Shown: positions 1 through 28,509 of the stretch, piece by piece
How positions within the stretch are numbered: position 1 is the first letter of the stretch
Layout of the letters: the number at the start of each line of letters is the position of its first letter
IMG/VR virus record: IMGVR_UViG_3300030438_000300
Direction: 5' to 3' (one strand)
DNA length: 30,806 bases
Source: a virus
Taxonomy: Duplodnaviria; Heunggongvirae; Uroviricota; Caudoviricetes
The notes under the pieces: model-generated
Seen by the model: only the letters and a program-made list of their open reading frames with translations
Databases searched by the model: none
What the model was told of the DNA's origin: nothing
Translations under genes and position numbers: made by a program

Positions 1-10
1 TACTCCTCCT

Positions 11-715
11 TTATCCGATATCGCTTCGGGAAGTTGATAACAACTTCAATTCTGACTCAAGTTCATCAACTCTTTCAGTCAGTTTCTGGATATGGTGAAT
101 CAGTGGAACAACCAGACGTTCGTACATTACACCTTCGGCAACAAGGCCATTGCTGGAAATAGCTTCCCGTGCATCATCTTCGTTAGCTGATCGCCAGTGT
201 ACAAACTGAGGGGCAATTTCTCCTACTTCCTCGGCAATCAATCCGTAGAATCCCCAGTCACGCCTGTCATTTTCGCATTGTGACCTGTACCATACAGGGC
301 GCATCCTGAAAATGAGATCGGCGTGCTCTGAATCTATCGTCTCTACTGAATGTTTATAGCGGATAGACGATGTTGACCGCAGTACAGACGAAATTGCAGG
401 GTCAGGATTAAGATAAAGGTTTGCCGCCGCTGTAGTCGTGGCCAAATTCCATAAATAAAACGCTTCACGACCTGTCAGTGGATAAAAATCTCCGCCATAA
501 CGACCACTTTCCAGATCGTTCACTTCCACTTTGTTTTTCAGCTTATTATCAACTTCAGTTTTTGTGTATCTGGAGCTGATATCCTGCTTTGCACTGGTCA
601 TATCAGTCTGAAGCGTTGATACTTTACCGTTAATTGAGGAAATATCTTCCTTCGCTTTACTGACATCTCCCTTCAGCGTGGTGATGTCTCCCGGAATTAC
701 TGTCGATGTAGCCAT
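11..715 (-). CDS. Standalone protein with tail-fibre/tailspike C-terminal intramolecular chaperone-like domain (peptidase S74-like)
   Basis: 234-aa ORF with a GAGGGAG RBS about 6 nt upstream of the ATG. The N-terminal part is coiled-coil-like. The C-terminal part contains DWGFYGLIAEEVGEIAPQFV, which resembles the conserved G(F/L)IAQEV..P..V motif of endosialidase/tail-fibre chaperone domains. An in-frame TGA lies about 30 nt upstream, so this is not the open 3' end of a longer tail-fibre gene in this frame. Confidence 0.55.
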   Translation of the reverse strand: MATSTVIPGDITTLKGDVSKAKEDISSINGKVSTLQTDMTSAKQDISSRYTKTEVDNKLKNKVEVNDLESGRYGGDFYPLTGREAFYLWNLATTTAAANLYLNPDPAISSVLRSTSSIRYKHSVETIDSEHADLIFRMRPVWYRSQCENDRRDWGFYGLIAEEVGEIAPQFVHWRSANEDDAREAISSNGLVAEGVMYERLVVPLIHHIQKLTERVDELESELKLLSTSRSDIG

Positions 716-869
716 TTGTCTCCCTCACATCCAGCCACGAAGTTGATGTTCAACAACAACCGCGTATTCATCGAATATTGACGATTTTTTTGCATCATTA
801 ATGATGCGCACGTTGGTGATGCTGCCAACTTACTGATTTAGTGTATGATGGTGTTTTTGAGGTGCTCCA

Positions 870-1145
870 GTGGCTTCTGTTTCTATCAGCTGTCCCTCCT
901 GTTCAGCTACTGACGGGGTGGTGCGTAACGGCAAAAGCACCGCCGGACATCAGCGCTATCTCTGCTCTCACTGCCGTAAAACATGGCAACTGCAGTTCAC
1001 TTACACCGCTTCTCAACCCGGTACGCACCAGAAAATCATTGATATGGCCATGAATGGCGTTGGATGCCGGGCAACTGCACGCATTATGGGCGTTGGCCTC
1101 AACACGATTTTACGTCACTTAAAAAACTCAGGCCGCAGTCGGTAA
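870..1145 (+). CDS. insA: IS1 InsA (transposition inhibitor / N-terminal part of InsAB' transposase)
   Basis: 91-aa product [43 protein letters not shown]... matches IS1 InsA as recalled. Confidence 0.95.
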
Positions 1146-1567
1146 CCTCGCGCATACAGCCGGGCAGTGACGTCATCGTCTGCGCGGAAATGGACGAACA
1201 GTGGGGCTATGTCGGGGCTAAATCGCGCCAGCGCTGGCTGTTTTACGCGTATGACAGTCTCCGGAAGACGGTTGTTGCGCACGTATTCGGTGAACGCACG
1301 ATGGCGACGCTGGGGCGTCTTATGAGCCTGCTGTCACCCTTTGACGTGGTGATATGGATGACGGATGGCTGGCCGCTGTATGAATCCCGCCTGAAGGGAA
1401 AGCTGCACGTAATCAGCAAGCGATATACGCAGCGAATTGAGCGGCATAACCTGAATCTGAGGCAGCACCTGGCACGGCTGGGACGGAAGTCGCTGTCGTT
1501 CTCAAAATCGGTGGAGCTGCATGACAAAGTCATCGGGCATTATCTGAACATAAAACACTATCAATAA
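1064..1567 (+). CDS. insB: IS1 InsB reading frame (expressed as InsAB' transposase by -1 frameshift)
   Basis: 167-aa frame ...[28 protein letters not shown]... matches IS1 InsB. Slippery motif TTAAAAAACTC lies at about 1119-1129 (A6C at 1121-1127) within the insA/insB overlap. Confidence 0.9.
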
Positions 1568-1672
1568 GTTGGAGTCATTACCCGAGCGACATTGCTCCGT
1601 GTATTCACTCGTTGGAATGAATACACAGTGCAGTGTTTATTCTGTTATTTATGCCAAAAATAAAGGCCACTA

Positions 1673-1873
1673 TCAGGCAGCTTTGTTGTTCTGTTTACCA
1701 AGTTCTCTGGCAATCATTGCCGTCGTTCGTATTGCCCATTTATCGACATATTTCCCATCTTCCATTACAGGAAACATTTCTTCAGGCTTAACCATGCATT
1801 CCGATTGCAGCTTGCATCCATTGCATCGCTTGAATTGTCCACACCATTGATTTTTATCAATAGTCGTAGTCAT
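1673..1873 (-). CDS. Small Cys-rich hypothetical protein at the kil-equivalent position of the leftward early operon
   Basis: 66-aa ORF with an AGGA RBS about 9 nt upstream. Contains CGQFKRCNGCKLQSEC (C-x5-C-x2-C-x5-C). Position is equivalent to kilR, which precedes sieB in Rac. No sequence-level family assignment is possible from memory. Confidence 0.4.
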   Translation of the reverse strand: MTTTIDKNQWCGQFKRCNGCKLQSECMVKPEEMFPVMEDGKYVDKWAIRTTAMIARELGKQNNKAA

Positions 1874-2029
1874 ACGGATAGTCCTGGTATTGTTCCATCA
1901 CATCCTGAGGATGCTCTTCGAACTCTTCAAATTCTTCTTCCGTGTATCACCTTAAATAGTGGATTGCGGTAGTAAAGATTGTGCCTGTCTTTTAACCACA
2001 TCAGGCTCGGTGGTTCTCGTATACCCCTA

Positions 2030-2080
2030 CAGCGAGAAATCGGATAAACTCTATTCACCCCTACAGAGAGCAAAAGAGAA
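2030..2080 (+). promoter_or_regulatory. Direct repeats ACCCCTACAG(C/A)GAG upstream of sieB (candidate promoter or regulator sites)
   Basis: Two 13-14-nt near-identical copies at about 2033-2046 and 2067-2080, 34 bp centre to centre, immediately upstream of the sieB start at 2087. Confidence 0.3.
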
Positions 2081-2086
2081 ACGCCG

Positions 2087-2668
2087 ATGAACAACTCATG
2101 GTGGCAGGAACTAATGCATTTTTTCCTGCAAGGAATGACACTTAAACAGTTGATTCATATGCTAATCATCCTGATCATATTGATTATTGTTATGCCGGTA
2201 AGCGTAAAAGAATGGATAAACCTGCATAATCCAGAAATCCTTCCTCATTATTGGATGTATTACATCCTGTTGTTCTGCGTTAGCTATGTGCTTAACGGTG
2301 TTGTTAATTCCGCTTATCACGCTGTGACTGAAAGAATTGAGGTATCCGCTGCTCAGAAGCGCAAATCTAAAGAAGAAAAATATGTGCAAGATTTGTTTGA
2401 TTCGTTAACTCTTGGAGAAAGAGCGTATTTGGCATTCGCTGTAGCCGCGAATAACCAGCTAAAGACAGAAAAGGGAAGCCCTGAAGCAATCTCATTGCTC
2501 GAAAAAGGGCTTCTTATTCGGATACCTTCTGCTACTGGATATCCTGAAATCGACCGTTTTGTTATCCCGGAACGCTATAGAAATGAGTGCTACATTAGGT
2601 TTGCTGGGAAGAAAGACAGTCTTATGGATGAACTTATCGCTCAGGATAAGCATGGCAAAAACAAGTAA
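2087..2668 (+). CDS. sieB: Superinfection exclusion protein B
   Basis: 193-aa protein with hydrophobic N-terminal segments (LIHMLIILIILIIVMPV, YWMYYILLFCVSYVL) resembling lambda/Rac SieB as recalled. Orientation is opposite to the pL genes, as in Rac. The true start could be the internal Met at 2114. Confidence 0.8.
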   Translation: MNNSWWQELMHFFLQGMTLKQLIHMLIILIILIIVMPVSVKEWINLHNPEILPHYWMYYILLFCVSYVLNGVVNSAYHAVTERIEVSAAQKRKSKEEKYVQDLFDSLTLGERAYLAFAVAANNQLKTEKGSPEAISLLEKGLLIRIPSATGYPEIDRFVIPERYRNECYIRFAGKKDSLMDELIAQDKHGKNK

Positions 2669-2683
2669 TTAGCAAATGATTTA

Positions 2684-2956
2684 TCATCTCGCCGTCAGTT
2701 GTTTTGATTTCCTGTAGCCTGCCGCGTAAATGGCTACGTTCGGAAGACAAGTTGAACCTTCATATTTTCTGGTCAACGTTGTCAGAGTTATCACTTCTGC
2801 TCTCATTGCTGGTTTGCGCTTGCATTGCAAGACCACTCGTGAAGGGGTTGGCCTGTGTAGCTTGTCGGAGCTGATCGCCTCCTGACTTTGCAGATTTGCG
2901 CGACGAGCTCTACGGCGAGAAGCTGCGGTGCCTTTAAATTCTGTTTTTCTGGACAT
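2684..2956 (-). CDS. N: N-type transcription antitermination protein (P22 gp24-like)
   Basis: 90-aa product starting MSRKTEFKGTAASRRRARRANLQ (arginine-rich motif) and ending NVAIYAAGYRKSKQLTAR, matching the recalled C-terminus of P22 N. GGGAGGA RBS 5 nt upstream. The ORF-track extension to 3028 lacks an RBS and runs into nutL. Confidence 0.8.
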   Translation of the reverse strand: MSRKTEFKGTAASRRRARRANLQSQEAISSDKLHRPTPSRVVLQCKRKPAMRAEVITLTTLTRKYEGSTCLPNVAIYAAGYRKSKQLTAR

Positions 2957-3055
2957 GGATTCCTCCCGAATAAACTTTGGCGATGCAATCTCGAAGCTCC
3001 TCCTGAGACGGTTGCTTCGGCATTGCATCCCACAGCTTATGTGGTTGGGTGATCT

Positions 3056-3100
3056 GGCTTTTCAGCCACGTAGTCGAGAGTCGACGTTGTTTAAAGAGCC
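3056..3100 (-). promoter_or_regulatory. nutL: Candidate nutL (boxA plus boxB-like hairpin)
   Basis: Minus strand reads GCTCTTTAAACAA (boxA-like, cf. consensus CGCTCTTTA), then a GTCGA-CTC-TCGAC hairpin, then GGCTGAAAAGCC (stem with purine-rich loop), located between the presumed pL and the N start. Confidence 0.5.
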
Positions 3101-3260
3101 TGCCAGTCTGTTCCATTTGGCTTCCAGCGTCCTGCTGACGATTAAATAGTACGATATGTACTTTACAAGATCAATACAATTTGTTGTAAGTTGGCGTGGT
3201 TTTTTATAACGCTTTGTATTTAATAGTGTTGTTTTTTAGCGTGGATGTATTGCCTCGGCG
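3101..3260 (-). promoter_or_regulatory. Candidate pL/OL operator-promoter region
   Basis: AT-rich non-coding region upstream of nutL/N. Contains motifs also present in the cI-cro intergenic region: TAACGCTTTGTATT (about 3207-3220) and, inverted, GTACTTTAC... (about 3152-3168). Confidence 0.4.
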
Positions 3261-3360
3261 ATGTAAGGAGAGATCAGAATTGCGTGGTTTAGTGGGTTGC
3301 ATCTATTTATTTTTCAATAAATACAATTGGTTATGTGTTTTTAGGTGGGGCGATCGTGAG

Positions 3361-3388
3361 GCAAAGAAAACCCGGCGCTGAGACCGGG
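3361..3388 (-). terminator. Intrinsic terminator immediately downstream of the RexB-like gene
   Basis: On the minus strand, stop TAA (3391-3389) is followed by hairpin CCCGGTCTCAGCGCCGGG (3388-3371) and TTTTCTTTG. Confidence 0.55.
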
Positions 3389-3880
3389 TTATTGTTGCTT
3401 GAGTTTTTCGTTATAAATCTGTTTCAGCTTTATTGGTATGAAAAAAGAGCATCCAAATGAAATTATGCTTAGCCAGCATATAATAAACTCAAGTGCCAGA
3501 CTCAGGTTGGTCACAGGCGGCTTGCTTGCTAAGATTTTACTGGTGTCTCCTGGTGGCAGCAGCATGTAGTAGAAGAATATTAAGCACAAGACTGTAAGAT
3601 AGAGGTAAAAAAGCATCATGTAACGAGAAAACCGAATTTCGAATTTCCTCTTAGTTGCATACTTTTCTGATCTTGATTTACCTTCTGTAAACGATGCTAC
3701 GTCTCCACTTGTGGTTATAACAAGTAACAGAAACCCTGTTAATATTGAAAATATATTTGCCACAAGTCCAAGCAACTCTTTGTTATATCTAACCTTATCA
3801 TGTAAATAATAAGTTAATACAAGAGAAAGGCAGATAAAAAAGATTATGGAAAAAATATAACTCCAATCTTTACCTCTCAT
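3389..3880 (-). CDS. RexB-position small integral membrane protein (4 predicted TM helices); candidate effector of a phage-exclusion system
   Basis: 163-aa ORF with four hydrophobic segments (YIFSIIFFICLSLVLTYYL, LLGLVANIFSILTGFLLLVITT, YMMLFYLYLTVLCLIFFYYMLL, LSLALEFIICWLSIISFGCSFFI). Strongly AT-rich. Same strand as cI and last gene of the cI-distal pair, as rexB is in lambda. No sequence similarity to lambda RexB recognised. Confidence 0.65.
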   Translation of the reverse strand: MRGKDWSYIFSIIFFICLSLVLTYYLHDKVRYNKELLGLVANIFSILTGFLLLVITTSGDVASFTEGKSRSEKYATKRKFEIRFSRYMMLFYLYLTVLCLIFFYYMLLPPGDTSKILASKPPVTNLSLALEFIICWLSIISFGCSFFIPIKLKQIYNEKLKQQ

Positions 3881-3917
3881 TCACACCTCCCCCTTTGGTT
3901 ATACGTACAACCCTCCA

Positions 3918-4769
3918 TTATAGTATGAAATCCTTGAAGTGCTCAAGAATTTCCTTAGCGTGTTCCGCTTTTATGGTGGTAGAGCCATACTTTCTTGTGT
4001 AATAATCTTTTTTTGTTTTGATTTCAGAGCTTTTGATCGCTTGGCCTTTTGATGTTGTGATGAAGAACTCTTCCGATAATTCATCAATGATCAGGCTTGG
4101 ATTTTTGTTCGCAATATTTAAGAGTTTTGGGTTATGTCTCTTGTCAAGAGTCAGAAGCCCATAGAAAGAGTTGTCATCATCTTGCTCTTTCTCAAATAAT
4201 CTTGACAAAGCTTCTTTAGCTTTTCCAGTGATACCTAATGATGTTGCTTTTGCCTCTTCTAGATCTTCTTTTGTTGTTTCAATACTTAGGCTGATGGAGC
4301 GTATTCCATCTTTTATTATCTTGCCAAGTGCATCTTTGTTGAGTTTCTCAGAAATATTCACATTGATATTCATGAGGCTAAATATTTTTTTTAACTTAGA
4401 TAAAGGATGAGTTCCTGATAGTTGAAAAATTGTTAGAATATTGCTTTCTGTTGCAAGTAAGAATATATGGCATTTATCATAATTATCTACATCCTGCAAA
4501 TCGTTATGGTCTCCATCTTTTGGAGTTACCGGGACCAAAGCTTTGGGCTCATAGAGTGTTATCCCAGCAAAGATTTGGTCATCGTTAACTATTAGACTTT
4601 TTATCCTTGCCCGAGTGTCGTTAGAGTACTCAAAGTCATAGTTTTGTTTGAAATTTTCGCATGTCTTCAAGACATCTACAAATGAGTATCCGTCATTACA
4701 ATCTACTTCAAATAGCGAAGTTTGTACTTTTTTGGGGAAATCTTTATTTTTTTCTTCCGAAAAATTCAT
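3918..4769 (-). CDS. RexA-position soluble protein; candidate sensor of a phage-exclusion system
   Basis: About 283-aa ORF from ATG 4769, with AAGGA RBS 6 nt upstream (the ORF track begins 2 codons earlier at TTG 4775). Lys/Asp/Glu-rich and AT-rich. No Walker, HNH or other catalytic motif recognised. Sits between cI and the 4-TM gene, as rexA does in lambda. Confidence 0.65.
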   Translation of the reverse strand: MNFSEEKNKDFPKKVQTSLFEVDCNDGYSFVDVLKTCENFKQNYDFEYSNDTRARIKSLIVNDDQIFAGITLYEPKALVPVTPKDGDHNDLQDVDNYDKCHIFLLATESNILTIFQLSGTHPLSKLKKIFSLMNINVNISEKLNKDALGKIIKDGIRSISLSIETTKEDLEEAKATSLGITGKAKEALSRLFEKEQDDDNSFYGLLTLDKRHNPKLLNIANKNPSLIIDELSEEFFITTSKGQAIKSSEIKTKKDYYTRKYGSTTIKAEHAKEILEHFKDFIL

Positions 4770-4868
4770 TGGCAATCCTTACTTTTTAATAAATGATTTT
4801 CAGTAAATTAATCAGTAAGTTGTTTAGCATAGGGTATGTGCGCTTTTGATAAATTACATGCAGTCACA

Positions 4869-5522
4869 TCACCCAAACGTCTCTTCAGGCCACTGACTAG
4901 CGATAACTTTCCCCACAACGGAACAACTCTCATTGCATGGGATCATTGGGTATTGTGGGTTTAGTGGCTGTAGAAACATCTGACCGCTATCCCTGATCAG
5001 TTTCTTGAAGGTAAACTCATCACCACCAAGTCTGGCTATACAGAAATCGCCTGGCTCAACAGCCTGCTCAGGGTCAACCAGAATTAACATCCCGTCAGGA
5101 AAGCTGGGCTTGGAACCTGTTGGTGCGGTCATTGAGTTACCTTCAACCTCAAGCCAGAATGCAGAGTCACTGGCTTTTTTGGTTGTGCTTACCAATCTCT
5201 CCGCATCGCCTTTGGTAAAGGTTCTGAGTTCTGGAGAGAACATCCCAGCCTGAACATGAGAAAAAACAGGGTACTCATATTGTTTTTTAACTGGGGCCGA
5301 TGAGTATTCGCCAACAGGTGAAAATGTCCCGTCGTGGTTGAATGATATGTTATCAATACCAAGGTATTTAAACACCACACCAATATCACTAAGAGATGGA
5401 TGACGAGATCCGCGCAACCAGTGTCCAATCCCACCCTGCGTCATACCTAGCTCTTCGGCTAACTTCTCTTGAGTTATGCCGAGCTCTTTCATTCTGGATC
5501 TAGCCAGTTCATACCATTTCAT
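4869..5522 (-). CDS. cI: CI-type prophage repressor (XRE HTH N-domain plus LexA/S24-like C-domain)
   Basis: The C-terminal ~130 aa ([27 protein letters not shown]...[15 protein letters not shown]) are near-identical to the lambda cI C-terminal domain as recalled. The N-terminal HTH ([38 protein letters not shown]) is different. Start chosen at the second Met (AGGA at 7-nt spacing); Met 5528 or the ORF-track start 5570 are alternatives. Confidence 0.9.
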
Positions 5523-5528
5523 TTTCAT

Positions 5529-5638
5529 GTCCTTATTATTACGCTTTGTACTGGAACCATCCATGCACAATGTGTATTTTTACTTGTATTCGTAAAGTAC
5601 ATATTGTATTTTTTATTCGTGTTTACTATGGAGGGCAT
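5529..5638. promoter_or_regulatory. Candidate OR operator region with divergent pRM/pR
   Basis: 110-bp AT-rich intergenic between divergent cI and cro. Contains TTACGCTTTGTACT (5539-5552) and GTAAAGTACATAT (5592-5604), both recurring upstream of N. Confidence 0.55.
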
Positions 5639-5854
5639 ATGAGCAACCTACGAAAATATCGAGAGTCACTGAATATCTCTCAAACAACACTTGCTAAGGC
5701 AGTTGGATGCACACAGGGAGCTATCGGACATTGGGAATCTGGTCGTCGCTTCCCAGACCTTAAAACATGCCGTGCTCTTGTTGCGTGCCTAAACAAGTTA
5801 GGCGCAAAAGTCAGTCTTGATGACGTGTTCCCGCCGGAACACAAAGCCGCTTAA
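5639..5854 (+). CDS. cro: Cro-like repressor (HTH XRE family)
   Basis: 71-aa product MSNLRKYRESLNISQTTLAKAVGCTQGAIGHWESGRRFP with GGAGGG RBS. Its recognition-helix region is paralogous to that of the adjacent cI (TQGGIGHW vs TQGAIGHW). Confidence 0.85.
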   Translation: MSNLRKYRESLNISQTTLAKAVGCTQGAIGHWESGRRFPDLKTCRALVACLNKLGAKVSLDDVFPPEHKAA

Positions 5855-5864
5855 TAAGCGGATC

Positions 5865-5909
5865 CGCTCTTTGTAACAACGGACATTCGTCCTACGTCGC
5901 TGAAAAGCG
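5865..5909 (+). promoter_or_regulatory. nutR: Candidate nutR (boxA plus boxB-like hairpin)
   Basis: CGCTCTTTGTAACAA (boxA-like) 11 nt after the cro stop, then a GGAC-ATTC-GTCC hairpin, then CGCTGAAAAGCG. Same architecture as the nutL candidate. Confidence 0.5.
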
Positions 5910-5995
5910 AGTTCCAAGATATCTGACCAACTAAGGCCATATGCGTTTCCACGCATACCTTTCAACTAACTATTCACTATTGGAAATCTTAAGAA

Positions 5996-6292
5996 ATGGA
6001 AAGAACAAGTTACAGCAAACTATCACAGCGTGACGTTGATCGCGCAGAAACAGATTTACTTATCAATCTGTCAGCTATTACCCAGCGCGGTCTGGCAAAG
6101 ATGATTGGCTGTCATGAATCGAAGATAAGCAGAACGGATTGGAGATTTATTGCTTCGGTCTTGTGTGCTTTCGGAATGGCATCAGACATCAGTCCGATTA
6201 GCAGGGCTTTTAAGTATGCGCTTGATGGACTCACCAATAAAAAACGCCCGGCGGCAACCGAGCGTTCTGAACAAATCCAGATGGAGTTCTGA
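5996..6292 (+). CDS. cII: CII-type transcriptional activator (hybrid)
   Basis: 98 aa. C-terminal LTNKKRPAATERSEQIQMEF matches the lambda CII C-terminus as recalled; the N-terminal ~75 aa differ. Weak RBS. Confidence 0.8.
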   Translation: MERTSYSKLSQRDVDRAETDLLINLSAITQRGLAKMIGCHESKISRTDWRFIASVLCAFGMASDISPISRAFKYALDGLTNKKRPAATERSEQIQMEF

Positions 6293-6324
6293 GGTCATTA
6301 CTGGATCTATCAACAGGAGTCATT

Positions 6325-7224
6325 ATGACAAATACAGCAAAAATACTCAACTTCGGCAGAGGTAACTTTGCCGGACAGGAGCGTAATGTGGCAGATCTCG
6401 ATGATGGTTACGCCAGACTATCAAATATGCTGCTTGAGGCTTATTCGGGCGCAGATCTGACCAAGCGACAGTTTAAAGTGCTGCTTGCCATTCTGCGTAA
6501 AACCTATGGGTGGAATAAACCAATGGACAGAATCACCGATTCTCAACTTAGCGAGATTACAAAGTTACCTGTCAAACGGTGCAATGAAGCCAAGTTAGAA
6601 CTCGTCAGAATGAATATTATCAAGCAGCAAGGCGGCATGTTTGGACCAAATAAAAACATCTCAGAATGGTGCATCCCTCAAAACGAGGGAAAATCCCCTA
6701 AAACGAGGGATAAAACATCCCTCAAATTGGGGGATTGCTATCCCTCAAAACAGGGGGACACAAAAGACACTATTACAAAAGAAAAAAGAAAAGATTATTC
6801 GTCAGAGAATTCTGGCGAATCCTCTGACCAGCCAGAAAACGACCTTTCTGTGGTGAAACCGGATGCTGCAATTCAGAGCGGCAGCAAGTGGGGGACAGCA
6901 GAAGACCTGACCGCCGCAGAGTGGATGTTTGACATGGTGAAGACTATCGCACCATCAGCCAGAAAACCGAATTTTGCTGGGTGGGCTAACGATATCCGCC
7001 TGATGCGTGAACGTGACGGACGTAACCACCGCGACATGTGCGTGCTGTTCCGCTGGGCATGCCAGGACAACTTCTGGTCCGGTAACGTGCTGAGCCCGGC
7101 CAAACTCCGCGATAAGTGGACCCAACTCGAAATCAACCGTAACAAGCAACAGGCAGGCGTGACAGCCAGCAAACCAAAACTCGACCTGACAAACACAGAC
7201 TGGATTTACGGGGTGGATCTATGA
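6325..7224 (+). CDS. O: Replication initiator O (lambda-type)
   Basis: 299-aa product MTNTAKILNFGRGNFAGQERNVADLDDGYARLSNMLLEAY... is essentially lambda O as recalled and contains the ori iterons. Confidence 0.95.
   Translation: MTNTAKILNFGRGNFAGQERNVADLDDGYARLSNMLLEAYSGADLTKRQFKVLLAILRKTYGWNKPMDRITDSQLSEITKLPVKRCNEAKLELVRMNIIKQQGGMFGPNKNISEWCIPQNEGKSPKTRDKTSLKLGDCYPSKQGDTKDTITKEKRKDYSSENSGESSDQPENDLSVVKPDAAIQSGSKWGTAEDLTAAEWMFDMVKTIAPSARKPNFAGWANDIRLMRERDGRNHRDMCVLFRWACQDNFWSGNVLSPAKLRDKWTQLEINRNKQQAGVTASKPKLDLTNTDWIYGVDL
6673..6758 (+). repeat. ori: ori-lambda iterons (four ~19-bp O-binding repeats) followed by an A/T-rich unwinding region
   Basis: ATCCCTCAAAACGAGGGAA, ATCCCCTAAAACGAGGGAT, ATCCCTCAAATTGGGGGAT and ATCCCTCAAAACAGGGGGA, followed by ACAAAAGACACTATTACAAAAGAAAAAAGAAAAG (about 6760-6800). 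Confidence 0.9.
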
Positions 7225-7922
7225 AAAACATCGCCGCACAGATGGTTAACTTTGACCGTGAGCAGATGCGTCGGATCGCCAACAACATGCCGGAACAGTA
7301 CGATGAAAAGCCGCAGGTACAGCAGGTAGCGCAGATCATCAACGGTGTGTTCAGCCAGTTACTGGCAACTTTCCCGGCGAGCCTGGCTAACCGTGACCAG
7401 AACGAAGTGAACGAAATCCGTCGCCAGTGGGTTCTGGCTTTTCGGGAAAACGGGATCACCACGATGGAACAGGTTAACGCAGGAATGCGCGTAGCCCGTC
7501 GGCAGAATCGACCATTTCTGCCATCACCCGGGCAGTTTGTTGCATGGTGCCGGGAAGAAGCATCCGTTATCGCCGGACTGCCAAACGTCAGCGAGCTGGT
7601 TGATATGGTTTACGAGTATTGCCGGAAGCGAGGCCTGTATCCGGATGCGGAGTCTTATCCGTGGAAATCAAACGCGCACTACTGGCTGGTTACCAACCTG
7701 TATCAGAACATGCGGGCCAATGCGCTTACTGATGCGGAATTACGCCGTAAGGCCGCAGATGAGCTTGTCCATATGACTGCGAGAATTAACCGTGGTGAGG
7801 CGATCCCTGAACCAGTAAAACAACTTCCTGTCATGGGCGGTAGACCTCTAAATCGTGCACAGGCTCTGGCGAAGATCGCAGAAATCAAAGCTAAGTTCGG
7901 ACTAAAAGGAGCAAGTGTATGA
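7221..7922 (+). CDS. P: Replication protein P (DnaB helicase loader, lambda-type)
   Basis: 233-aa product MKNIAAQMVNFDREQMRRIANNMPEQYDEKPQVQQVAQIINGVF... matches lambda P as recalled. ATGA overlap with the O stop. Confidence 0.95.
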   Translation: MKNIAAQMVNFDREQMRRIANNMPEQYDEKPQVQQVAQIINGVFSQLLATFPASLANRDQNEVNEIRRQWVLAFRENGITTMEQVNAGMRVARRQNRPFLPSPGQFVAWCREEASVIAGLPNVSELVDMVYEYCRKRGLYPDAESYPWKSNAHYWLVTNLYQNMRANALTDAELRRKAADELVHMTARINRGEAIPEPVKQLPVMGGRPLNRAQALAKIAEIKAKFGLKGASV

Positions 7923-8209
7923 CGGGCAAAGAGGCAATTATTCATTACCTGGGGACGCATAATAGCTTCTGTGCGCCGGACGTTGCCGCGCTAACAGGCG
8001 CAACAGTAACCAGCATAAATCAGGCCGCGGCTAAAATGGCACGGGCAGGTCTTCTGGTTATCGAAGGTAAGGTCTGGCGAACGGTGTATTACCGGTTTGC
8101 TACTAGGGAAGAACGGGAAGGAAAGATGAGCACGAACCTGATTTTTAAGGAGTGTCGCCAGAGTGCCGCGATGAAACGGGTATTGGCGGTATATGGAGTT
8201 AAAAGATGA
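7919..8209 (+). CDS. ren: Ren (Rex exclusion escape protein, lambda-type)
   Basis: 96-aa product MTGKEAIIHYLGTHNSFCAPDVAALTGATVTSINQAAAKMARAGLLVIEGKVWRT matches lambda Ren as recalled. ATGA overlap with P. Confidence 0.9.
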   Translation: MTGKEAIIHYLGTHNSFCAPDVAALTGATVTSINQAAAKMARAGLLVIEGKVWRTVYYRFATREEREGKMSTNLIFKECRQSAAMKRVLAVYGVKR

Positions 8210-8234
8210 CCATCTACATTACTGAGCTAATAAC

Positions 8235-8266
8235 AGGCCTGCTGGTAATCGCAGGCCTTTTTATTT
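8235..8266 (+). terminator. tR2: tR2-like intrinsic terminator
   Basis: Hairpin AGGCCTGC-tggtaatc-GCAGGCCT followed by TTTTATTT, between ren and ninB, as at lambda tR2. Confidence 0.7.
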
Positions 8267-8282
8267 GGGGGAGAGGGAAGTC

Positions 8283-8723
8283 ATGAAAAAACTAACCTTT
8301 GAAATTCGATCTCCAGCACATCAGCAAAACGCTATTCACGCAGTACAGCAAATCCTTCCAGACCCAACCAAACCAATCGTAGTAACCATTCAGGAACGCA
8401 ACCGCAGCTTAGACCAAAACAGGAAGCTATGGGCCTGCTTAGGTGACGTCTCTCGTCAGGTTGAATGGCATGGTCGCTGGCTGGATGCAGAAAGCTGGAA
8501 GTGTGTGTTTACCGCAGCATTAAAGCAGCAGGATGTTGTTCCTAACCTTGCCGGGAATGGCTTTGTGGTAATAGGCCAGTCAACCAGCAGGATGCGTGTA
8601 GGCGAATTTGCGGAGCTATTAGAGCTTATACAGGCATTCGGTACAGAGCGTGGCGTTAAGTGGTCAGACGAAGCGAGACTGGCTCTGGAGTGGAAAGCGA
8701 GATGGGGAGATCGGGCTGCATGA
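8283..8723 (+). CDS. ninB: NinB (recombination mediator, Orf family)
   Basis: 146-aa product MKKLTFEIRSPAHQQNAIHAVQQILPDPTKPIVVTIQERNRSLDQNRKLWACLGDVSRQVEWHG... matches lambda NinB as recalled. GGAG-rich RBS. The ORF track has a 6-codon upstream extension. Confidence 0.9.
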   Translation: MKKLTFEIRSPAHQQNAIHAVQQILPDPTKPIVVTIQERNRSLDQNRKLWACLGDVSRQVEWHGRWLDAESWKCVFTAALKQQDVVPNLAGNGFVVIGQSTSRMRVGEFAELLELIQAFGTERGVKWSDEARLALEWKARWGDRAA

Positions 8724-9247
8724 CAATCAAATCAAATACGCCAGCACACGACAAGGACTGCTGGCAAACGCCGCTTTGGCTTTTTGATGCACTGGATATT
8801 GAGTTTGGATTCTGGCTGGATTCGGCAGCGAGCGACAAAAATGCTCTGTGTGCTCACTGGCTAACTGAGGCCGACGACGCGCTCAATTCTGAGTGGGTAA
8901 GCCACGGTGCAATCTGGAATAACCCACCGTACAGCAATATCAGGCCGTGGGTGGAAAAAGCCGCTGAGCAGTGCATACAACAGCGACAGACGGTAGTTAT
9001 GCTTGTGCCAGAGGATATGTCAGTCGGATGGTTCAGCAAGGCTCTGGAGAGTGTCGACGAAGTTCGCATTATCACTGATGGACGGATTAATTTTATCGAA
9101 CCATCGACAGGGTTGGAGAAGAAGGGAAACAGCAAAGGCTCCATGCTGCTGATTTGGCGACCGTTCATCAGTCCTCGACGGATGTTTACTACCGTATCCA
9201 AAGCGGCATTGATGGCGATCGGGCAGGGCGTCAGGAGGGCGGCATGA
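8720..9247 (+). CDS. Phage DNA N6-adenine methyltransferase (Dam-like, orphan)
   Basis: 175-aa product from [26 protein letters not shown]... with catalytic-type motif [12 protein letters not shown] overlap with the ninB stop. No cognate restriction gene is seen. Confidence 0.8.
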
Positions 9248-9420
9248 GGCGACAGCGACGAAGTTTCACCGACATCATCTGCGAAAACTGCAAATACCTT
9301 CCAACGAAACGCTCCAGAAATAAACGCAAGCCAATCCCAAAAGAATCTGACGTAAAAACCTTCAATTACACAGCTCACCTGTGGGATATCCGGTGGCTAA
9401 GATATCGTGCGAGGAAATGA
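9244..9420 (+). CDS. ninE: NinE
   Basis: 58-aa product [58 protein letters not shown] resembles lambda NinE as recalled. ATGA overlap with the methyltransferase stop. Confidence 0.8.
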
Positions 9421-9764
9421 CAATGGATTATTCACAGTTAAGTGATTTTGAAATTAACAGAATGGTAGGAGACATAATTTTTAAAGGCCTTTGGGCAAGT
9501 AAACCGGAAACATCAGGGAATAACACCAACAAATGGTATTACGGAAATGCTGATACAACTTTTGAGCCATTAAATCATTTGCCTGACTACTGCAATGATC
9601 CGAGCGCTTCATGGCCGATTATTGAGAAATACAGGATTTCTATCTTAGACCAGTTAACTGAATGGTGTGTGGATGCAAAAGGCGTAAGCCCAATATTTGA
9701 TACCAGACCTCTCCGCGCCGCCATGATTGTCTTTCTCCTGATGCAGGAGGCCAATAATGCTTAG
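9417..9764 (+). CDS. Hypothetical nin-region protein
   Basis: 115-aa ORF from [22 protein letters not shown]..., translationally coupled to ninE by an ATGA overlap. No family recognised. Confidence 0.6.
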
Positions 9765-9974
9765 CCCATCTCAATCCCTTCAATACCAGAAAGGAAGCAT
9801 AGAGCGGGCTTCAATGAGCACAGAGTGGATTCTATCTAGGTTTAGCGCATACAGAAGATTGCCGGTAAAGGGCATGCCAAGCAAGTCGATGCTGCATATG
9901 CAAAAGAATGCGCGCTGGAAGGTATGGCGAAAACACAGGTTATGTGGCTGAAAGAGGGGATTATTAAGGCGTGA
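9757..9974 (+). pseudogene. Mosaic-junction remnant: ninF-like 5' end joined to the 3' end of a ybcO-like (DUF1364) gene
   Basis: Frame-1 ORF starts [18 protein letters not shown], like the lambda NinF N-terminus as recalled, then diverges. Frame 0 from about 9846 to stop 9972-9974 reads ...[32 protein letters not shown], like the C-terminus of DLP12 YbcO as recalled, with no upstream start and a TAG at 9843-9845. Confidence 0.45.
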
Positions 9975-10333
9975 ATACCTACAGCATCACATTACCCTGG
10001 CCTCCGAGCAATAATCGCTATTACCGCCATAATCGCGGGCGCACGCACGTCAGCGCAGAGGGGCAGGCATACCGCGATAACGTCGCCAGAATCATTAAAA
10101 ACGCAATGCTGGATATCGGCCTGGCTATCCCTGTGAAAATCCGCATTGAGTGCCACATGCCGGATCGCCGTCGCCGTGACCTGGATAATCTGCAAAAAGT
10201 CGCTTTTGACGCACTCACTAAAGCAGGTTTCTGGCTGGATGATGCTCAGGTCGTTGATTACCGCGTTGTGAAGATGCCTGTTACCAAAGGTGGGAGGCTG
10301 GAACTGACCATCACCGAAATGGGGAATGAATGA
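9971..10333 (+). CDS. rusA: Holliday junction resolvase RusA
   Basis: 120-aa product (GTG start) [52 protein letters not shown]...[12 protein letters not shown] is essentially E. coli DLP12 RusA as recalled. Confidence 0.92.
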
Positions 10334-10470
10334 TGTTTGAGTTTAATATGGCAGAACTTCTTCGCCACCGCTGGATGCGCCTGCGCTTATATCGTTTCCC
10401 CAGTTCTGTTTTGACCGATTACCGAATACTGAAGAATTACGCCAAAACCCTGACAGGAGCAGGAGTATGA
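10333..10470 (+). CDS. ylcG: Small protein YlcG-like
   Basis: 45-aa [48 protein letters not shown], overlapping the rusA stop (TGATG). Resembles DLP12 YlcG as recalled. Below the ORF-track size cut-off. Confidence 0.6.
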   Translation: MFEFNMAELLRHRWMRLRLYRFPSSVLTDYRILKNYAKTLTGAGV

Positions 10471-10555
10471 AGTCAGAGATAACAATCAACTAATACTGTT
10501 TTGTTGATTTTTGCTTGTAATTGGCGTTCTGGTCTGATTTTTGTGGAGTAAGTTG

Positions 10556-10939
10556 ATGCGTGATATTCAGATGGTTCTTGAACGTTGGGGAGCGTGGGCG
10601 GCTAATAATCATGAAGATGTGACCTGGTCGTCCATTGCCGCCGGTTTTAAGGGATTAATTCCTTCAAAAGTAAAATCTCGCCCGCAATGTTGTGACGATG
10701 ACGCGATGATCATTTGCGGGTGCATGGCCCGTCTGAAAAAGAACAACAGCGATTTGCACGATTTATTAGTAGATTATTATGTAGTCGGTATGACATTCAT
10801 GTCACTGGCAGGTAAGCATTGCTGCTCTGATGGTTATATCGGGAAAAGGTTACAGAAGGCTGAGGGTATAATTGAAGGGATGTTAATGGCATTAGATATC
10901 CGGTTAGAGATGGATATCGTTGTTAATAACTCTAATTAA
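10556..10939 (+). CDS. quuD: Late-gene antiterminator Q (phage 82/DLP12 QuuD type)
   Basis: 127-aa product [33 protein letters not shown]...[18 protein letters not shown]... matches QuuD as recalled. GGAG RBS 8 nt upstream of ATG 10556. The ORF track begins at the upstream TTG 10541. Confidence 0.9.
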
Positions 10940-11128
10940 TATGCCAGTTGTTTACTAAAAGTTATTAAAAATGGGGCGTTGCAACGCCCCCAAAAATAAA
11001 GGGTAATATATAACAGAAGGTTTATATAGTTAGAAGCAAGGTTGTGCTCCTAAAGGAAGTGGCTTGAGGGAGCCACTTATATGTTGGGGAGGCAAAGCCT
11101 CCCGCAACATATCTTTTTCGTAATCAGA

Positions 11129-12211
11129 TTAGAACTGATACACCAGACCTACAGCGACGATGTCGTCGGTATCAATACCAGCTGTTTTGGTAAACTTACT
11201 ATCGTCAATTAAGTTGATTTTGTAATCAACAAAAGTGGACATGTTTTTATTAAAGTAGTAAGTAGCACCGACATCGACATACTTGACTAAGTCTCGGTCA
11301 CCATGAACACCAAGGTCTTTACCTTTTGACTGAAGGTAAGCAACAGATGGTCGCAGACCGAAGTCAAACTGATATTGTGCTACTGCTTCAAAGTTTTGTG
11401 CTTTGTTTGCAATATGGTTATTACCAAAAACGGTCATATTCTGAGTTTCAGAATATGTGGTAGCCAGATAGATATTGTTCGCATCATATTTCAGGCCTGC
11501 AGCCCATACTTCCGCATTTTTGCCGGAGGCATTGAATTTGCTCTTACCATAGGCGACCTGACCGTCAGTGCGATCTGATTTAGCATAGGTTGCACCCACG
11601 CCGAATCCTTCATACTCATAAGTAGTGGAGAAACCGAAACCATCACCATTGGCTTCAGTTACGTCAGTGCGGTCATTTTTACCCTGATACTGAGCAGCAA
11701 AGTTCAGGCCATCGACCAGACCAAAGAAGTCGTTGTTACGATAGGTTGCAACACCAGTGGTGCGACCAGTCATGAACACATCTGTTTGGGTCCAGGTATC
11801 GCCACCGAATTCTGGCAGAACGTCAGTCCACGCACCGATGTCGTATGCTACACCGTAGTTACGGCCGTAATCGATTGAGCCGTAGTCACCGAATTTCAGG
11901 CCTGCAAATGCAAGACGGGTTTTGTCTTTGGAGGAACCTTGAGATTCAGCGCGGTTGCCTTTGAATTCATATTCCCACTGACCGAAACCAGTCAGTTGAT
12001 CGTTGATTTGGGTTTCACCTTTGAAGCCAAGACGGGCATAAGTAGTATCACCATCATCTGCATCATTAGAGGAGAAGTAGTGCTTAGCATTAACTTTCCC
12101 GTACAGATCCAGCTTGTTACTGTCTTTATTATAAATTTCAGCTGCCTGAGCAGACATCGCCATCAGTACTGATGCAGCTACAGCAGAAATTGCCACTGTT
12201 AATTTTTTCAT
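11129..12211 (-). CDS. nmpC: Outer membrane general porin (OmpC/NmpC family), apparently intact
   Basis: 360-aa product with signal peptide [30 protein letters not shown]..., beta-barrel porin-like sequence and C-terminal ...VGLVYQF. Lies between Q and the lysis genes on the opposite strand, as nmpC does in DLP12. Confidence 0.9.
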
Positions 12212-12640
12212 CGTGAGCCCTTTTTTTTGAACTATTATTAAAAAATGATGTCACTGCGCGATAAATATTCATCTAATCAATGTGATTATTTCAAGATGTA
12301 AGTTTTGGTTTCTCGTTTGATTTGTGAAGTAGATCTCTATTTTTATCTGAACTTTTTTCTATCGAATCCTATTCATGGCTCTTGGCTGAATAAAAATAAA
12401 TCTATTAGCCAATTTATATTAACGGCTATTATTTATAAGTGCTCTATAATTTGAAGGTTCAATTTAAACCAGCTAAAAATAACACTGGAAATTATTTGTT
12501 GGTTATTTGTTGAGATTTGCTTATGTATTTGTAGCGGTGTTTTCAATACTCGGTAGCATTCTCGCAAATATCATTTAGTGGTTTACGTACGTAAAAAATT
12601 GGTTATGCTGTTAAGAGTGGTTACTTCGTCACACAGCTTA

Positions 12641-12672
12641 AACCCGCCGTCGAGCGGGTTTTTCCATTTTTT
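12641..12672 (+). terminator. Strong plus-strand intrinsic terminator upstream of the lysis cassette (candidate tR')
   Basis: AACCCGCCGTCGAGCGGGTTTTTCCATTTTTT: GC-rich hairpin followed by a T-run. The reverse complement has no U-tract, so it acts on plus-strand transcripts only. Confidence 0.55.
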
Positions 12673-18167: not shown

Positions 18168-19394
18168 ATGCTTCTTGATGCTCTGTTTCGCAGTGAGCCT
18201 CTGGAAAATCCCTCGGTTCCGGTAACCGGAGAGGCCGCTGAGACGGATAATATTTTTGCCCGGGATGTGTATGTCAGTCCGGAAACATCCATGAAGCTGG
18301 CTGCTGTCTATGCCTGTATTTATGTTATTTCATCCAGTGTGGCTCAGATGCCCCTGCATGTGATGCGAAAAACGAATGAGCATGTTCAGCCTGCACGCGA
18401 TCATCCGTTGTTCTGGCTCGTTCATGATGAACCGAATGCCTGGCAGACCAGCTATAAGTGGCGGGAACTGAAGCAGCGTCATGTGCTGGGGTGGGGCAAT
18501 GGTTATACGTGGGTAAAACGTAATCGTCGTGGAGAGGTTACCAGCCTTGAATGCTGTATGCCATGGGAAACTACGTTACTTAACACCGGTGGGCGTCATA
18601 CTTACGGGGTGTATAACGAAGAGGGTGCATTTGCGGTAAGTCCGGACGACATGATCCATATCAGGGCGCTGGGAAACAATCAGAAAATGGGACTGAGCCC
18701 GATCATGCAGCATGCTGAAACCATTGGTATGGGAATGAGTGGCCAGCAGTATACCAGCGCCTTTTTTAACGGTAATGCCCGTCCTGCCGGTATTATTTCT
18801 GTGAAAAATGAACTGAACGAACAAAGCTGGGGCAGGCTTAAAAATATGTGGCAGCGGGCGGTGACAGCGCTTCGCAGCCAGGAAAATAAAACCATGTTGC
18901 TGCCTGCGCAACTGGATTACCGCGCTCTGACAGTTTCTCCGGTGGATGCTCAGATCATTGATATGACCAAGCTGAACCGGTCGATGATTGCCGGGATTTT
19001 TAATGTCCCGGCGCACATGATTAATGACCTGGAAAAAGCCACATTTTCGAATATTACGCAGCAGGCGATTCAGTTTGTTCGCTACACGATGATGCCCTGG
19101 GTTGCGAACTGGGAGCAGGAGCTTAACCGTCGCCTGTTTACCCGTACAGAACGGGCTGCCGGGTATTACGTTCGTTTCAACCTCACGGGGTTGCTCCGTG
19201 GGACCCCACAGGAGCGTGCGCAGTTCTATCACTTTGCCATTACAGATGGCTGGATGAGTCGGAATGAAGCCAGGGCATTTGAGGATATGAACCCGGTTGA
19301 CGGTCTGGATGAAATGCTGGTCAGCGTAAATGCAGCAAATCCGTTGAATAACTTTAAAGATACGAAAGGCAAAGAGGAAAAGAACGATGAATGA
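18168..19394 (+). CDS. Portal protein (HK97 family)
   Basis: 408-aa ORF with GAGGAG RBS, directly following terL and preceding the prohead protease. Confidence 0.9.
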   Translation: MLLDALFRSEPLENPSVPVTGEAAETDNIFARDVYVSPETSMKLAAVYACIYVISSSVAQMPLHVMRKTNEHVQPARDHPLFWLVHDEPNAWQTSYKWRELKQRHVLGWGNGYTWVKRNRRGEVTSLECCMPWETTLLNTGGRHTYGVYNEEGAFAVSPDDMIHIRALGNNQKMGLSPIMQHAETIGMGMSGQQYTSAFFNGNARPAGIISVKNELNEQSWGRLKNMWQRAVTALRSQENKTMLLPAQLDYRALTVSPVDAQIIDMTKLNRSMIAGIFNVPAHMINDLEKATFSNITQQAIQFVRYTMMPWVANWEQELNRRLFTRTERAAGYYVRFNLTGLLRGTPQERAQFYHFAITDGWMSRNEARAFEDMNPVDGLDEMLVSVNAANPLNNFKDTKGKEEKNDE

Positions 19395-19986
19395 CCGTGA
19401 AACGCGCTGTTACAGCGGGGAGGTGCGGGCGGAACAATATGATAATGCCCCGACCCACATTCTGGGGTATGGCTCGGTATTTAACAGTCGTTCAGAACCT
19501 CTGTGGGGATTTCGTGAAATCATCAAGCCGGGGGCTTTTGATGATGTACTGAATGATGATGTACGTGGCTTGTTTAATCATGATCCTAATTTCATTCTCG
19601 GACGAAGTTCTGCCGGCACGTTGTCATTGTCGGTGGATGAACGCGGTTTACGTTATGACATTGTTGCACCGGATACTCCGACTATTTGTGACCTGGTGCT
19701 GTCTCCAATGTTGCGTGGTGACATTAATCAGTCCTCGTTCGCGTTTCGTGTCGCCCGTGACGGAGAGAGCTGGTATGAAGACGACGAGGGGATTGTTATC
19801 CGGGAAATCACGCGCATTTCTCGTCTGTATGACGTCAGCCCGGTGACATATCCGGCCTATCAGGACGCAGACTCTGGTGTCCGCTCAATGAAAGCCTGGC
19901 AGGAAGCGCGGGCGAGTGGTGCGCTGAAGAAAGCTGTTAACGAACGAATGGCGCGTGAGCGTCTTTTGACCCTTCTTAATGCATAA
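19387..19986 (+). CDS. Prohead maturation protease (HK97 family, S78-like)
   Basis: 199-aa ORF overlapping the portal stop. Position and size are typical of an HK97-type protease. Confidence 0.85.
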   Translation: MNDRETRCYSGEVRAEQYDNAPTHILGYGSVFNSRSEPLWGFREIIKPGAFDDVLNDDVRGLFNHDPNFILGRSSAGTLSLSVDERGLRYDIVAPDTPTICDLVLSPMLRGDINQSSFAFRVARDGESWYEDDEGIVIREITRISRLYDVSPVTYPAYQDADSGVRSMKAWQEARASGALKKAVNERMARERLLTLLNA

Positions 19987-20000
19987 GGATACTACTGACG

Positions 20001-21218: not shown

Positions 21219-21240
21219 CCACTCGTTGTTCAGTTACAGA

Positions 21241-21264
21241 CCGCGCCGACGCGGTTTTTTTATG
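21241..21264 (+). terminator. Intrinsic terminator/attenuator downstream of the major capsid gene
   Basis: ACCGCG-CCGA-CGCGGT hairpin followed by TTTTTTTA, 23 nt after the capsid stop. A second hairpin GCCCGCACAGTGTTGCGGGC follows. Confidence 0.7.
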
Positions 21265-21294
21265 CCCGCACAGTGTTGCGGGCAGGAGTTTCTG

Positions 21295-21612: not shown

Positions 21613-21620
21613 GAGGAGAC

Positions 21621-22746: not shown

Positions 22747-22767
22747 GGTCGTTAATGATTTTACCCA

Positions 22768-22790
22768 CCCGCCGCTGGCGGGTTTTTTAT
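22768..22790 (+). terminator. Intrinsic terminator/attenuator upstream of the major tail gene
   Basis: CCCGCC-GCTG-GCGGG hairpin followed by TTTTTTATTTT. Confidence 0.65.
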
Positions 22791-22805
22791 TTTCAGGAGA
22801 CGAGT

Positions 22806-24198: not shown

Positions 24199-24206
24199 GT
24201 CAACAT

Positions 24207-24228: not shown

Positions 24229-24238
24229 CGTCCGGAGA

Positions 24239-28504: not shown

Positions 28505-28509
28505 ATCCC

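What the first reader, a model, noticed from the sequence alone, without database searches (positions are those of the whole stretch)
806..1591. IS1 without target-site duplication joins a tail-fibre-like ORF to a truncated pL operon
The IS1 is complete (768 bp, intact insA/insB and A6C frameshift site), but its flanking 9-mers differ (gcgcacgtt vs cgagcgaca). IS1 normally makes 8-9-bp duplications, so this points to an IS1-mediated adjacent deletion or recombination between two IS1 copies. Consistent with that, no int, xis, exo, bet or gam is present: the leftward operon ends after the kil-position ORF and abuts a minus-strand tail-fibre-chaperone-like gene. The prophage therefore looks locked in and defective at its left end.
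Basis: partly seen in the sequence, partly recalled or inferred. Interest (0 to 1): 0.5.

Follow-up and report, generated by a model that had tools for sequence, protein, structure and literature searches.

The report
IS1 at a prophage rearrangement breakpoint
A complete IS1 insertion sequence sits at a breakpoint that joins the tail-fibre end of a prophage to the ral-N end of a lambda-like prophage whose integrase and recombination genes are missing here; this is ordinary IS-driven prophage scrambling, not a new kind of element.

Summary
IS1 occupies 815-1582 (768 bp), with open insA, an A6C slip site and a 232-aa InsAB'. Its flanking 9-mers (GCGCACGTT / CGAGCGACA) are unrelated. IS1-free alleles show the two flanks come from different places. 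The left flank is the last 29 codons of a 93-aa tail-fibre-module gene plus a 234-aa Peptidase_S74 tail-fibre gene. The right flank is the ral-Ea10 spacer of a lambda-like prophage. In intact relatives about 6.2 kb (Ea10, cIII, kil, gam, bet, exo ... xis, int) lies to its left. The ORF next to IS1 is ral, not kil.

The same left junction, with the same rare IS1 variant, occurs in two other genomes. There the IS1's other end abuts a truncated tape-measure gene. So the left junction is older and the IS1-ral junction is the new one. Neighbouring IS1 copies that are simple insertions all carry perfect 9-bp duplications.

Tail-fibre modules and ral lie on opposite strands in normal prophage order but on the same strand here. 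The source genome could not be found, so the reciprocal junction is untested. This is a known phenomenon of low interest.

The parts
11..715 (-). 234-aa tail-fibre-domain protein with a C-terminal intramolecular-chaperone (Peptidase_S74) domain
   Evidence: ORF list. Pfam Peptidase_S74, 27.5 bits against a cut-off of 22. PHROG tail-fibre families. It is always found in the order stf / 93 aa / this gene / 97 aa at the right end of lambdoid prophages.
725..814 (-). 3' remnant (last 29 codons plus stop) of a 93-aa tail-fibre-module gene, cut by IS1 after codon 64
   Evidence: The translation NVRIINDAKKSSIFDEYAVVVEHQLRGWM* equals residues 65-93 of the intact 93-aa protein of L012.
806..814 (.). 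Left flanking 9-mer GCGCACGTT, not duplicated on the right
815..1582 (+). Complete IS1 (768 bp): IRL 815-837, IRR 1560-1582, insA 870-1145, A6C slip site 1121-1127, insB' frame ending at 1567
   Evidence: It differs by 1 nt from the IS1 at the same site in L008 and L013 and shares their variant (A265, G486).
1583..1591 (.). Right flanking 9-mer CGAGCGACA, the probable target sequence of the event that made the new junction
   Evidence: In IS1-free alleles it is preceded by CTGTTTAGTTA.
1583..1672 (-). ral-proximal half of the ral-Ea10 intergenic spacer
   Evidence: The breakpoint maps to L014 9496|9497, which is 90 bp below the ral stop and 92 bp above the Ea10 start.
1673..1873 (-). ral (antirestriction protein, 66 aa), the last surviving gene of the pL operon
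   Evidence: Pfam Ral E=1.6e-48, full length.
2087..2668 (+). sieB (superinfection exclusion B)
   Evidence: Pfam SieB E=1.4e-25.
2684..2956 (-). N antiterminator, first gene of the pL operon (the ORF is open up to 3028)
   Evidence: Pfam N_peptide E=5.6e-32. Called as 90 aa in relatives.

Best explanation
The IS1 marks a rearrangement breakpoint, not an insertion. One IS1 copy was already sitting in the 93-aa gene of a prophage tail-fibre module. Its right end (IRR) then became joined to a new target, CGAGCGACA, in the ral-Ea10 spacer of a lambda-like prophage. This happened either by homologous recombination with a second, inverted IS1 that had inserted there, or by intramolecular replicative transposition of the first copy (duplicative inversion).

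Because the tail-fibre module and ral end up on the same strand, the event was an inversion of the DNA between the two sites. If the tail-fibre module belongs to the same prophage, the inverted segment is about 40 kb. If it belongs to the Rac/sit-site prophage seen in the closest relative, it is about 0.77 Mb.

The consequences are as follows. The pL operon now ends after ral. Ea10, cIII, kil, gam, bet, exo, xis, int and attL are no longer contiguous with the rest of the prophage. Int/Xis-mediated excision as a unit is therefore impossible.

Shown: the junction anatomy, the origin of each flank, the intact IS1, and the sharing of the left junction with other genomes. Inferred: inversion rather than deletion, the order of events, and the loss of excision.
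For: 1. The flanks are unrelated and map to different loci in IS1-free alleles.
2. The left junction is identical to the base in L008 (CP163700.1) and L013 (CP164048.1). It has the same IS1 orientation and the same IS1 variant, with 1 nt difference, whereas other sampled IS1 copies differ at 3-10 sites. In those two genomes IRR abuts a truncated tape-measure gene instead. The left junction is therefore shared by descent, and the IRR side is the variable one.
3. The window's early region differs from the att-lambda prophage of the same genome CP163700.1 by 1 mismatch and 2 gaps over a 7215-column alignment.
4. In CP163700.1 sieB and the tail-fibre gene are both on the record's + strand. In the window they are on opposite strands. 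The IS1 there is oriented inversely to the orientation that the window's IS1 has relative to ral. Recombination would therefore invert and not delete.
5. An intact att-lambda relative (L064) also has its 93-aa/S74 module on the strand opposite ral.
6. The ral-Ea10 spacer is a demonstrated IS1 target. L062 has a simple IS1 insertion 41 bp away, in the same orientation, with the TSD CACAGTGCA.
7. IS1-mediated deletions and a 1.49-Mb IS1-mediated inversion are documented in E. coli, with prophage remnants over-represented among deletions (PMC4173774). Direct IS copies delete and inverted copies invert (PMC5009759).
Against: The reciprocal junction (Ea10 side, CGAGCGACA, IS1) was not observed. The source genome is not in any searchable collection. 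Only 814 bp of left flank is in the window, and that module is 99.4-99.9% identical in every sampled genomic context. Its chromosomal location in the source is therefore unknown. The window's left flank differs from L008 at 2 sites, 77 and 353. An independent IS1 hit at the same nucleotide cannot be fully excluded. The target flank shares TGATGC with IRL (seen directly in the sequence).
Confidence: 0.55

Rival explanations
1. IS1-mediated adjacent deletion, or recombination between two direct IS1 copies. This would have removed int-to-Ea10, any intervening chromosome and most of a neighbouring, oppositely oriented prophage, leaving one IS1 at the deletion joint.
For: There is one IS1 and no TSD. 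IS1 deletions that hit prophages are common (PMC4173774). L008/L013 and L003 show IS1-associated internal deletions in this same tail-fibre module.
Against: It requires a prophage lying int-to-int (head to head) immediately left of this one. In all intact relatives found, int is directly next to ybhC with no such neighbour. In the closest relative the two loci are about 770 kb apart and oriented so that IS1 recombination inverts.
Confidence: 0.2
2. Assembly artefact. The contig is a chimera in which the left flank of one IS1 copy (tail fibre | IS1 | tape measure, as in L008) was joined to the right flank of another copy (a simple insertion below ral) through the collapsed 768-bp repeat.
For: Neither the full join nor the right junction occurs in 5,426 complete E. 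coli genomes, GTDB representatives, IMG/VR or JGI metagenomes. IS1 is a multi-copy repeat, with up to 68 matching places per genome for an IS1-containing query. The left junction exists elsewhere with a different partner.
Against: There is nothing abnormal in the sequence. IS1 is complete and in register at both ends. The same data are expected for a private, real event. No reads are available to test it.
Confidence: 0.1
3. Ordinary IS1 insertion whose 9-bp duplication has since mutated away.
For: None beyond the presence of a complete IS1.
Against: The flanks are not diverged copies of each other. Each continues into a different, well-conserved sequence in IS1-free alleles, and no shared 7- to 14-mer exists.
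Confidence: 0.01

Closest known systems
IS1-mediated chromosomal rearrangements in E. coli: deletions and inversions by recombination between IS1 copies or by intramolecular transposition (for example the LTEE rearrangements, PMC4173774; mutation-accumulation lines, PMC5009759)
   Same: A single intact IS1 at a joint between two unrelated sequences, with no target-site duplication and prophage DNA affected. The rule that direct copies delete and inverted copies invert applies directly.
   Different: Only one of the two expected junctions is visible here. This particular joint (tail-fibre module to ral spacer) was not found in any other genome searched.
Cryptic or defective lambdoid prophages of E. 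coli (Rac, DLP12, Qin and the like), from established knowledge
   Same: A lambda-type early region that has lost contiguity with int/xis and the Red/Gam genes through IS activity.
   Different: The rest of this prophage looks intact. The early region has 14 mismatches and no gaps against an intact relative over 11 kb, and the late genes are full length. It is a recent, single-hit defect rather than a long-decayed remnant.
Active temperate phages Escherichia phage 2G7b and PhiR11_1
   Same: 98.5% identical over the ral-to-nin region, including the same immunity region and the rex-position cassette.
   Different: They carry the full left arm (int, xis, ea8.5, ea22, exo, bet, gam, Ea10), about 6.26 kb to the left of the point where the window has IS1.

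Membership tests
IS1 family insertion sequence | About 768 bp with imperfect terminal inverted repeats of about 23 bp | tested here: met
   815-1582 is 768 bp, and the terminal repeats match at 18 of the first 23 positions.
IS1 family insertion sequence | insA, an A6C -1 frameshift site and insB' giving an InsAB' transposase with InsA zinc-ribbon, HTH and DDE_Tnp_IS1 domains | tested here: met
   insA is 91 aa. A6C is at 1121-1127. The simulated fusion is 232 aa without a stop. All three Pfam domains are well above cut-off.
IS1 family insertion sequence (as a simple insertion) | 8-9-bp direct target-site duplication flanking the element | tested here: not met
   GCGCACGTT against CGAGCGACA. 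Control IS1 copies in related loci show perfect 9-bp TSDs. The element is an IS1, but it is not sitting at a simple insertion site.
Lambda-type pL (leftward early) operon | N, then ral/sieB, then Ea10, cIII, kil, gam, bet, exo ... xis, int in leftward order | tested here: inconclusive
   N, sieB and ral are present and confirmed by Pfam. Everything distal to ral is absent from the window, though present in IS1-free relatives. The operon is truncated.
Kil (host cell-division inhibitor) | Pfam Lambda_Kil homology for the ORF next to IS1 | tested here: not met
   ORF 1673-1873 matches Ral over its full length and has no Kil hit. In relatives kil lies two or three genes further left.
Tail fibre/spike with intramolecular chaperone (Peptidase_S74) | C-terminal S74 chaperone domain in a tail-fibre-module context | tested here: met
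   Pfam PF13884, 27.5 bits (cut-off 22) at residues 116-172. PHROG tail-fibre families. Conserved position after stf and the 93-aa gene.
IS-bounded chromosomal inversion | A second, inverted IS1 copy at the reciprocal junction carrying the same 9-bp target (CGAGCGACA) on the Ea10 side | not testable with these tools
   The source genome was not retrievable. The reciprocal pattern is absent from JGI metagenomes and IMG/VR, which do not contain the source in any case.

The most novel reading that the evidence does not exclude
The junction is one end of a large (about 0.77 Mb) IS1-bounded chromosomal inversion between the att-lambda and Rac/sit prophage loci. The inversion would split an otherwise intact prophage in two and place a foreign tail-fibre gene downstream of the N-antiterminated pL transcript.
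Probability: 0.35. Interest if true: 0.2.

Novelty: already known. Interest (0 to 1): 0.12.

Why it matters
The finding matters mainly for annotation. This prophage should be scored as non-excisable or split, despite its intact-looking immunity, replication, lysis and morphogenesis genes. The contig join across IS1 should be verified before it is used for synteny or prophage-boundary calls. It is also one more example of IS1 targeting the tail-fibre module and the ral region of lambdoid prophages. It opens no new biological question.

Tried and rejected
1. Search for the same junctions. A megablast of 1-3000 and of 500-bp probes centred on each junction against 5,426 complete E. coli genomes found no contiguous match. 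The only full-coverage hits were multi-piece, with IS1 at a different position.

2. Exact-pattern scans.
- Right junction: no hits in GTDB representatives, IMG/VR or JGI metagenomes.
- Left junction: no hits in GTDB representatives.
- Predicted reciprocal junction (either IS1 end): no hits in JGI metagenomes or IMG/VR.

3. Attempts to find the source contig through exact-protein look-ups.
- The 234-aa fibre protein (two flank sizes), SieB, Ral, the 283-aa protein and gpK did not return it.
- The window's gpI is not on record as 223 aa.
- As 190 aa it occurs only on one metagenome scaffold, which is just 97.5% identical at the DNA level.
- The source is therefore not in the collections.

4. The left-flank sequence was compared across contexts to place it on the chromosome. 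This failed because the module differs by only 1-5 of 814 bases between loci.

5. A literature search for the accessions of the closest relatives found nothing.

6. The decayed-TSD idea was rejected on the IS1-free alleles.

7. The kil reading was rejected by Pfam.

8. No tRNA gene and no Rfam family was found in the window that could mark an att site.

Full report
**Observation**

Reading the sequence and checking it by script places a complete IS1 at 815-1582, which is 768 bp.
- The ends are GGTGATGCTGCCAAC... and ...GTTGGAGTCATTACC, and the terminal repeats match at 18 of the first 23 positions.
- insA is 870-1145 and encodes 91 aa.
- There is one A6C motif, at 1121-1127.
- A simulated -1 slip there gives an open 232-aa InsAB'. 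That protein carries the Zn_ribbon_InsA, HTH_Tnp_IS1 and DDE_Tnp_IS1 domains.

The 9-mers outside the ends are GCGCACGTT and CGAGCGACA, and no 7- to 14-mer is shared between the flanks.

The TSD test is informative in this material.
- IS1 copies that are plain insertions in related loci have perfect 9-bp repeats: L001 AATAATGAG, L002 CTGCTTCTA, L061 copy 1 TTTATCGAC, and L062 CACAGTGCA.
- IS1 copies that sit at obvious rearrangements do not: L003, and L061 copies 2 and 3.

**What the flanks are**

The left flank is from a tail-fibre module.
- On the minus strand, 725-814 encodes NVRIINDAKKSSIFDEYAVVVEHQLRGWM*. These are residues 65-93 of a 93-aa protein found in lambdoid tail-fibre modules.
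- It is followed by a 234-aa protein (11-715) with a Peptidase_S74 intramolecular-chaperone domain and PHROG tail-fibre matches.
- In about 17 IS1-free loci this module reads stf / 93 aa / 234 aa / 97 aa at the right end of prophages at several chromosomal sites.
- In those loci the sequence continues GCGCACGTT|TACAAAATATCC.

The right flank is the pL operon of a lambda-like prophage.
- It contains ral (1673-1873, Pfam Ral E=1.6e-48), sieB and N.
- In eight IS1-free alleles the right flank is preceded by ...CTGTTTAGTTA|CGAGCGACATTGC.
- The breakpoint lies in the ral-Ea10 spacer, 90 bp below ral.
- To its left those alleles carry Ea10 (DUF2528), cIII, kil, gam, bet, exo, small ORFs, xis and int next to ybhC, which is the att-lambda site. 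This is 6,184 bp in L014.
- The active phages 2G7b and PhiR11_1 are 98.5% identical to 1583-9000. PhiR11_1 has int to Ea10 in the 6.26 kb before the breakpoint.

The rest of the window is collinear with intact relatives.
- 1583-12668 is 99.87% identical to L019, with no gaps.
- 18510-29359 is 99.8-99.9% identical to L044-L049.
- All morphogenesis ORFs are full length.

**History of the junction**

The left junction is not unique. L008 (CP163700.1) and L013 (CP164048.1) have IS1 at exactly the same base and in the same orientation.
- Their IS1 differs from the window's at one position (127). It shares with the window's copy a variant (A265, G486) that the other sampled IS1 copies lack; those differ at 3-10 sites.
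- In those genomes IRR abuts a truncated tape-measure gene (GTGTCATCCAGCC...) of a prophage at the sit/ompN/ydbK (Rac) locus, again without a TSD.
- The same genome, CP163700.1, carries at att-lambda a prophage whose early region differs from the window by 1 mismatch and 2 gaps over a 7215-column alignment.

The simplest reading is that the IS1 / 93-aa junction is shared by descent and that the IRR side has been rearranged independently. That makes the IS1-ral junction the new one. It appears private. It is absent from 5,426 complete E. coli genomes, GTDB representatives, IMG/VR and JGI metagenomes.

**Mechanism**

In every normal arrangement seen, the tail-fibre module and ral are on opposite strands. 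This holds within one prophage (L064) and between the two loci of CP163700.1, where sieB and the fibre gene are both on the record's + strand. In the window they are on the same strand and adjacent.

The IS1 in CP163700.1 is inverted relative to the orientation that the window's IS1 has with respect to ral. Two routes are then possible:
- recombination with an IS1 inserted in the ral-Ea10 spacer; such an insertion, in that orientation and with a TSD, exists 41 bp away in L062;
- intramolecular replicative transposition of the resident IS1.

Either would invert the intervening DNA and produce exactly the window's joint. This is the textbook rule that direct copies delete and inverted copies invert (PMC5009759). 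IS1-bounded inversions up to 1.49 Mb are documented in E. coli (PMC4173774).

The inverted segment could be about 0.77 Mb if the fibre module is the Rac/sit-site one, as in CP163700.1. It could be about 40 kb if the prophage's own fibre module is involved, since att-lambda relatives can carry a stf / 93 aa / S74-domain fibre / 97 aa module of this kind. The window cannot separate these two cases, because the 814-bp flank is nearly identical in all contexts.

No relative shows that. I give inversion about 0.55, deletion about 0.2 and an assembly chimera across the multi-copy IS1 about 0.1. A decayed TSD is excluded by the IS1-free alleles.

**Consequences (inferred)**

pL transcription now ends, or reads through IS1, after ral. 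cIII, kil, gam, bet, exo, xis and int are no longer part of the unit, and attL is no longer in direct orientation and adjacent. The prophage therefore cannot excise as a whole, even though its remaining genes look intact. However, the missing arm may still exist elsewhere in the genome.

**What could not be done**

The source genome is not in any collection.
- The window's exact gpI is unknown as a 223-aa product.
- As 190 aa it occurs only on one metagenome scaffold, which is 97.5% identical at the DNA level.
- The predicted reciprocal junction (CTGTTTAGTTACGAGCGACA plus an IS1 end) therefore remains untested. Scans of metagenomes and IMG/VR were negative but uninformative.

**Comparison and novelty**

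This is a standard IS1-mediated rearrangement in a lambdoid prophage. IS1 hits in the same two regions recur in other E. coli genomes:
- L003 has an IS1 without a TSD in the fibre module.
- L061 has one IS1 inside ral and another IS1-truncated ral fragment.
- L062 has an IS1 in the ral spacer.

Nothing here departs from known IS1 or lambda biology. Interest is low. The value lies in correct annotation (ral not kil; a split or defective prophage) and in flagging a contig join that deserves long-read confirmation.

Noticed in passing
window 3389-4775 (minus strand): A two-gene cassette (283 aa and 163 aa) lies between the cI-like repressor and N, the position of rexAB in lambda. Its GC content is 35% against 49% for the window. 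It has no Pfam or PADLOC hit. The 283-aa protein matches only phrog_23561 (unknown function), and the 163-aa protein matches nothing. The cassette is conserved in the active phages 2G7b and PhiR11_1 and in many prophages. It could be an uncharacterised exclusion or defence cassette.
   Followed up: partly
window 11129-12211 (minus strand): A prophage-borne 360-aa general porin (Pfam Porin_1, E=1.9e-151) lies on the opposite strand between the Q antiterminator region and the lysis genes. The same gene is in relatives L014, L019 and L032.
   Followed up: partly
L062 4051-4818; L061 4166-7207; L003 6965-7732: IS1 has hit the same two regions independently in other E. coli genomes. L062 has a simple insertion with TSD CACAGTGCA 41 bp from the window's breakpoint. 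L061 has one IS1 inside ral (with a TSD) plus two TSD-less copies where the prophage's right side is gone. L003 has a TSD-less IS1 in the same tail-fibre module.
   Followed up: yes
L008 / L013 / L055 (CP163700.1 about 2.4688-2.4696 Mb; CP164048.1): In these genomes the same IS1 is joined on its IRR side to a tape-measure gene truncated to 881 aa. This implies an IS1-associated internal deletion of the tape-measure 3' end, M, L, K, I, J, lom, stf and the 5' part of the 93-aa gene, compared with the IS1-free allele L012 at the same sit/ompN locus.
   Followed up: partly
window 803-820: The left target flank (AATGATGCGCACGTT) shares the hexamer TGATGC with the adjacent IS1 left end (GGTGATGCTGCC). 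This may be chance, or a weak end-homology feature of an IS1 insertion hot spot.
   Followed up: no
window 29359-29577 (gene I): There is a mosaic boundary here. Identity to the closest late-region relatives is 99.8% up to 29359. A roughly 220-bp stretch then does not align. Identity is about 97.5% in J afterwards. The resulting gpI sequence is almost unique in the protein collection.
   Followed up: partly
about window 6957 (inside gene O): Three draft-assembly contigs that carry the same late region (L045, L048, L049) all start at the equivalent of about window 6957. This suggests that the O/P replication module to the left is repeated in another co-resident prophage in those genomes.
   Followed up: no
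L022 / L043 (CP163700.1 and JAKLOC010000001.1): The closest relatives of the early region carry an IS66-family element (three ORFs) between N and the 163-aa gene. The window lacks it, so the window's lineage diverged before that insertion, or lost it.
   Followed up: no
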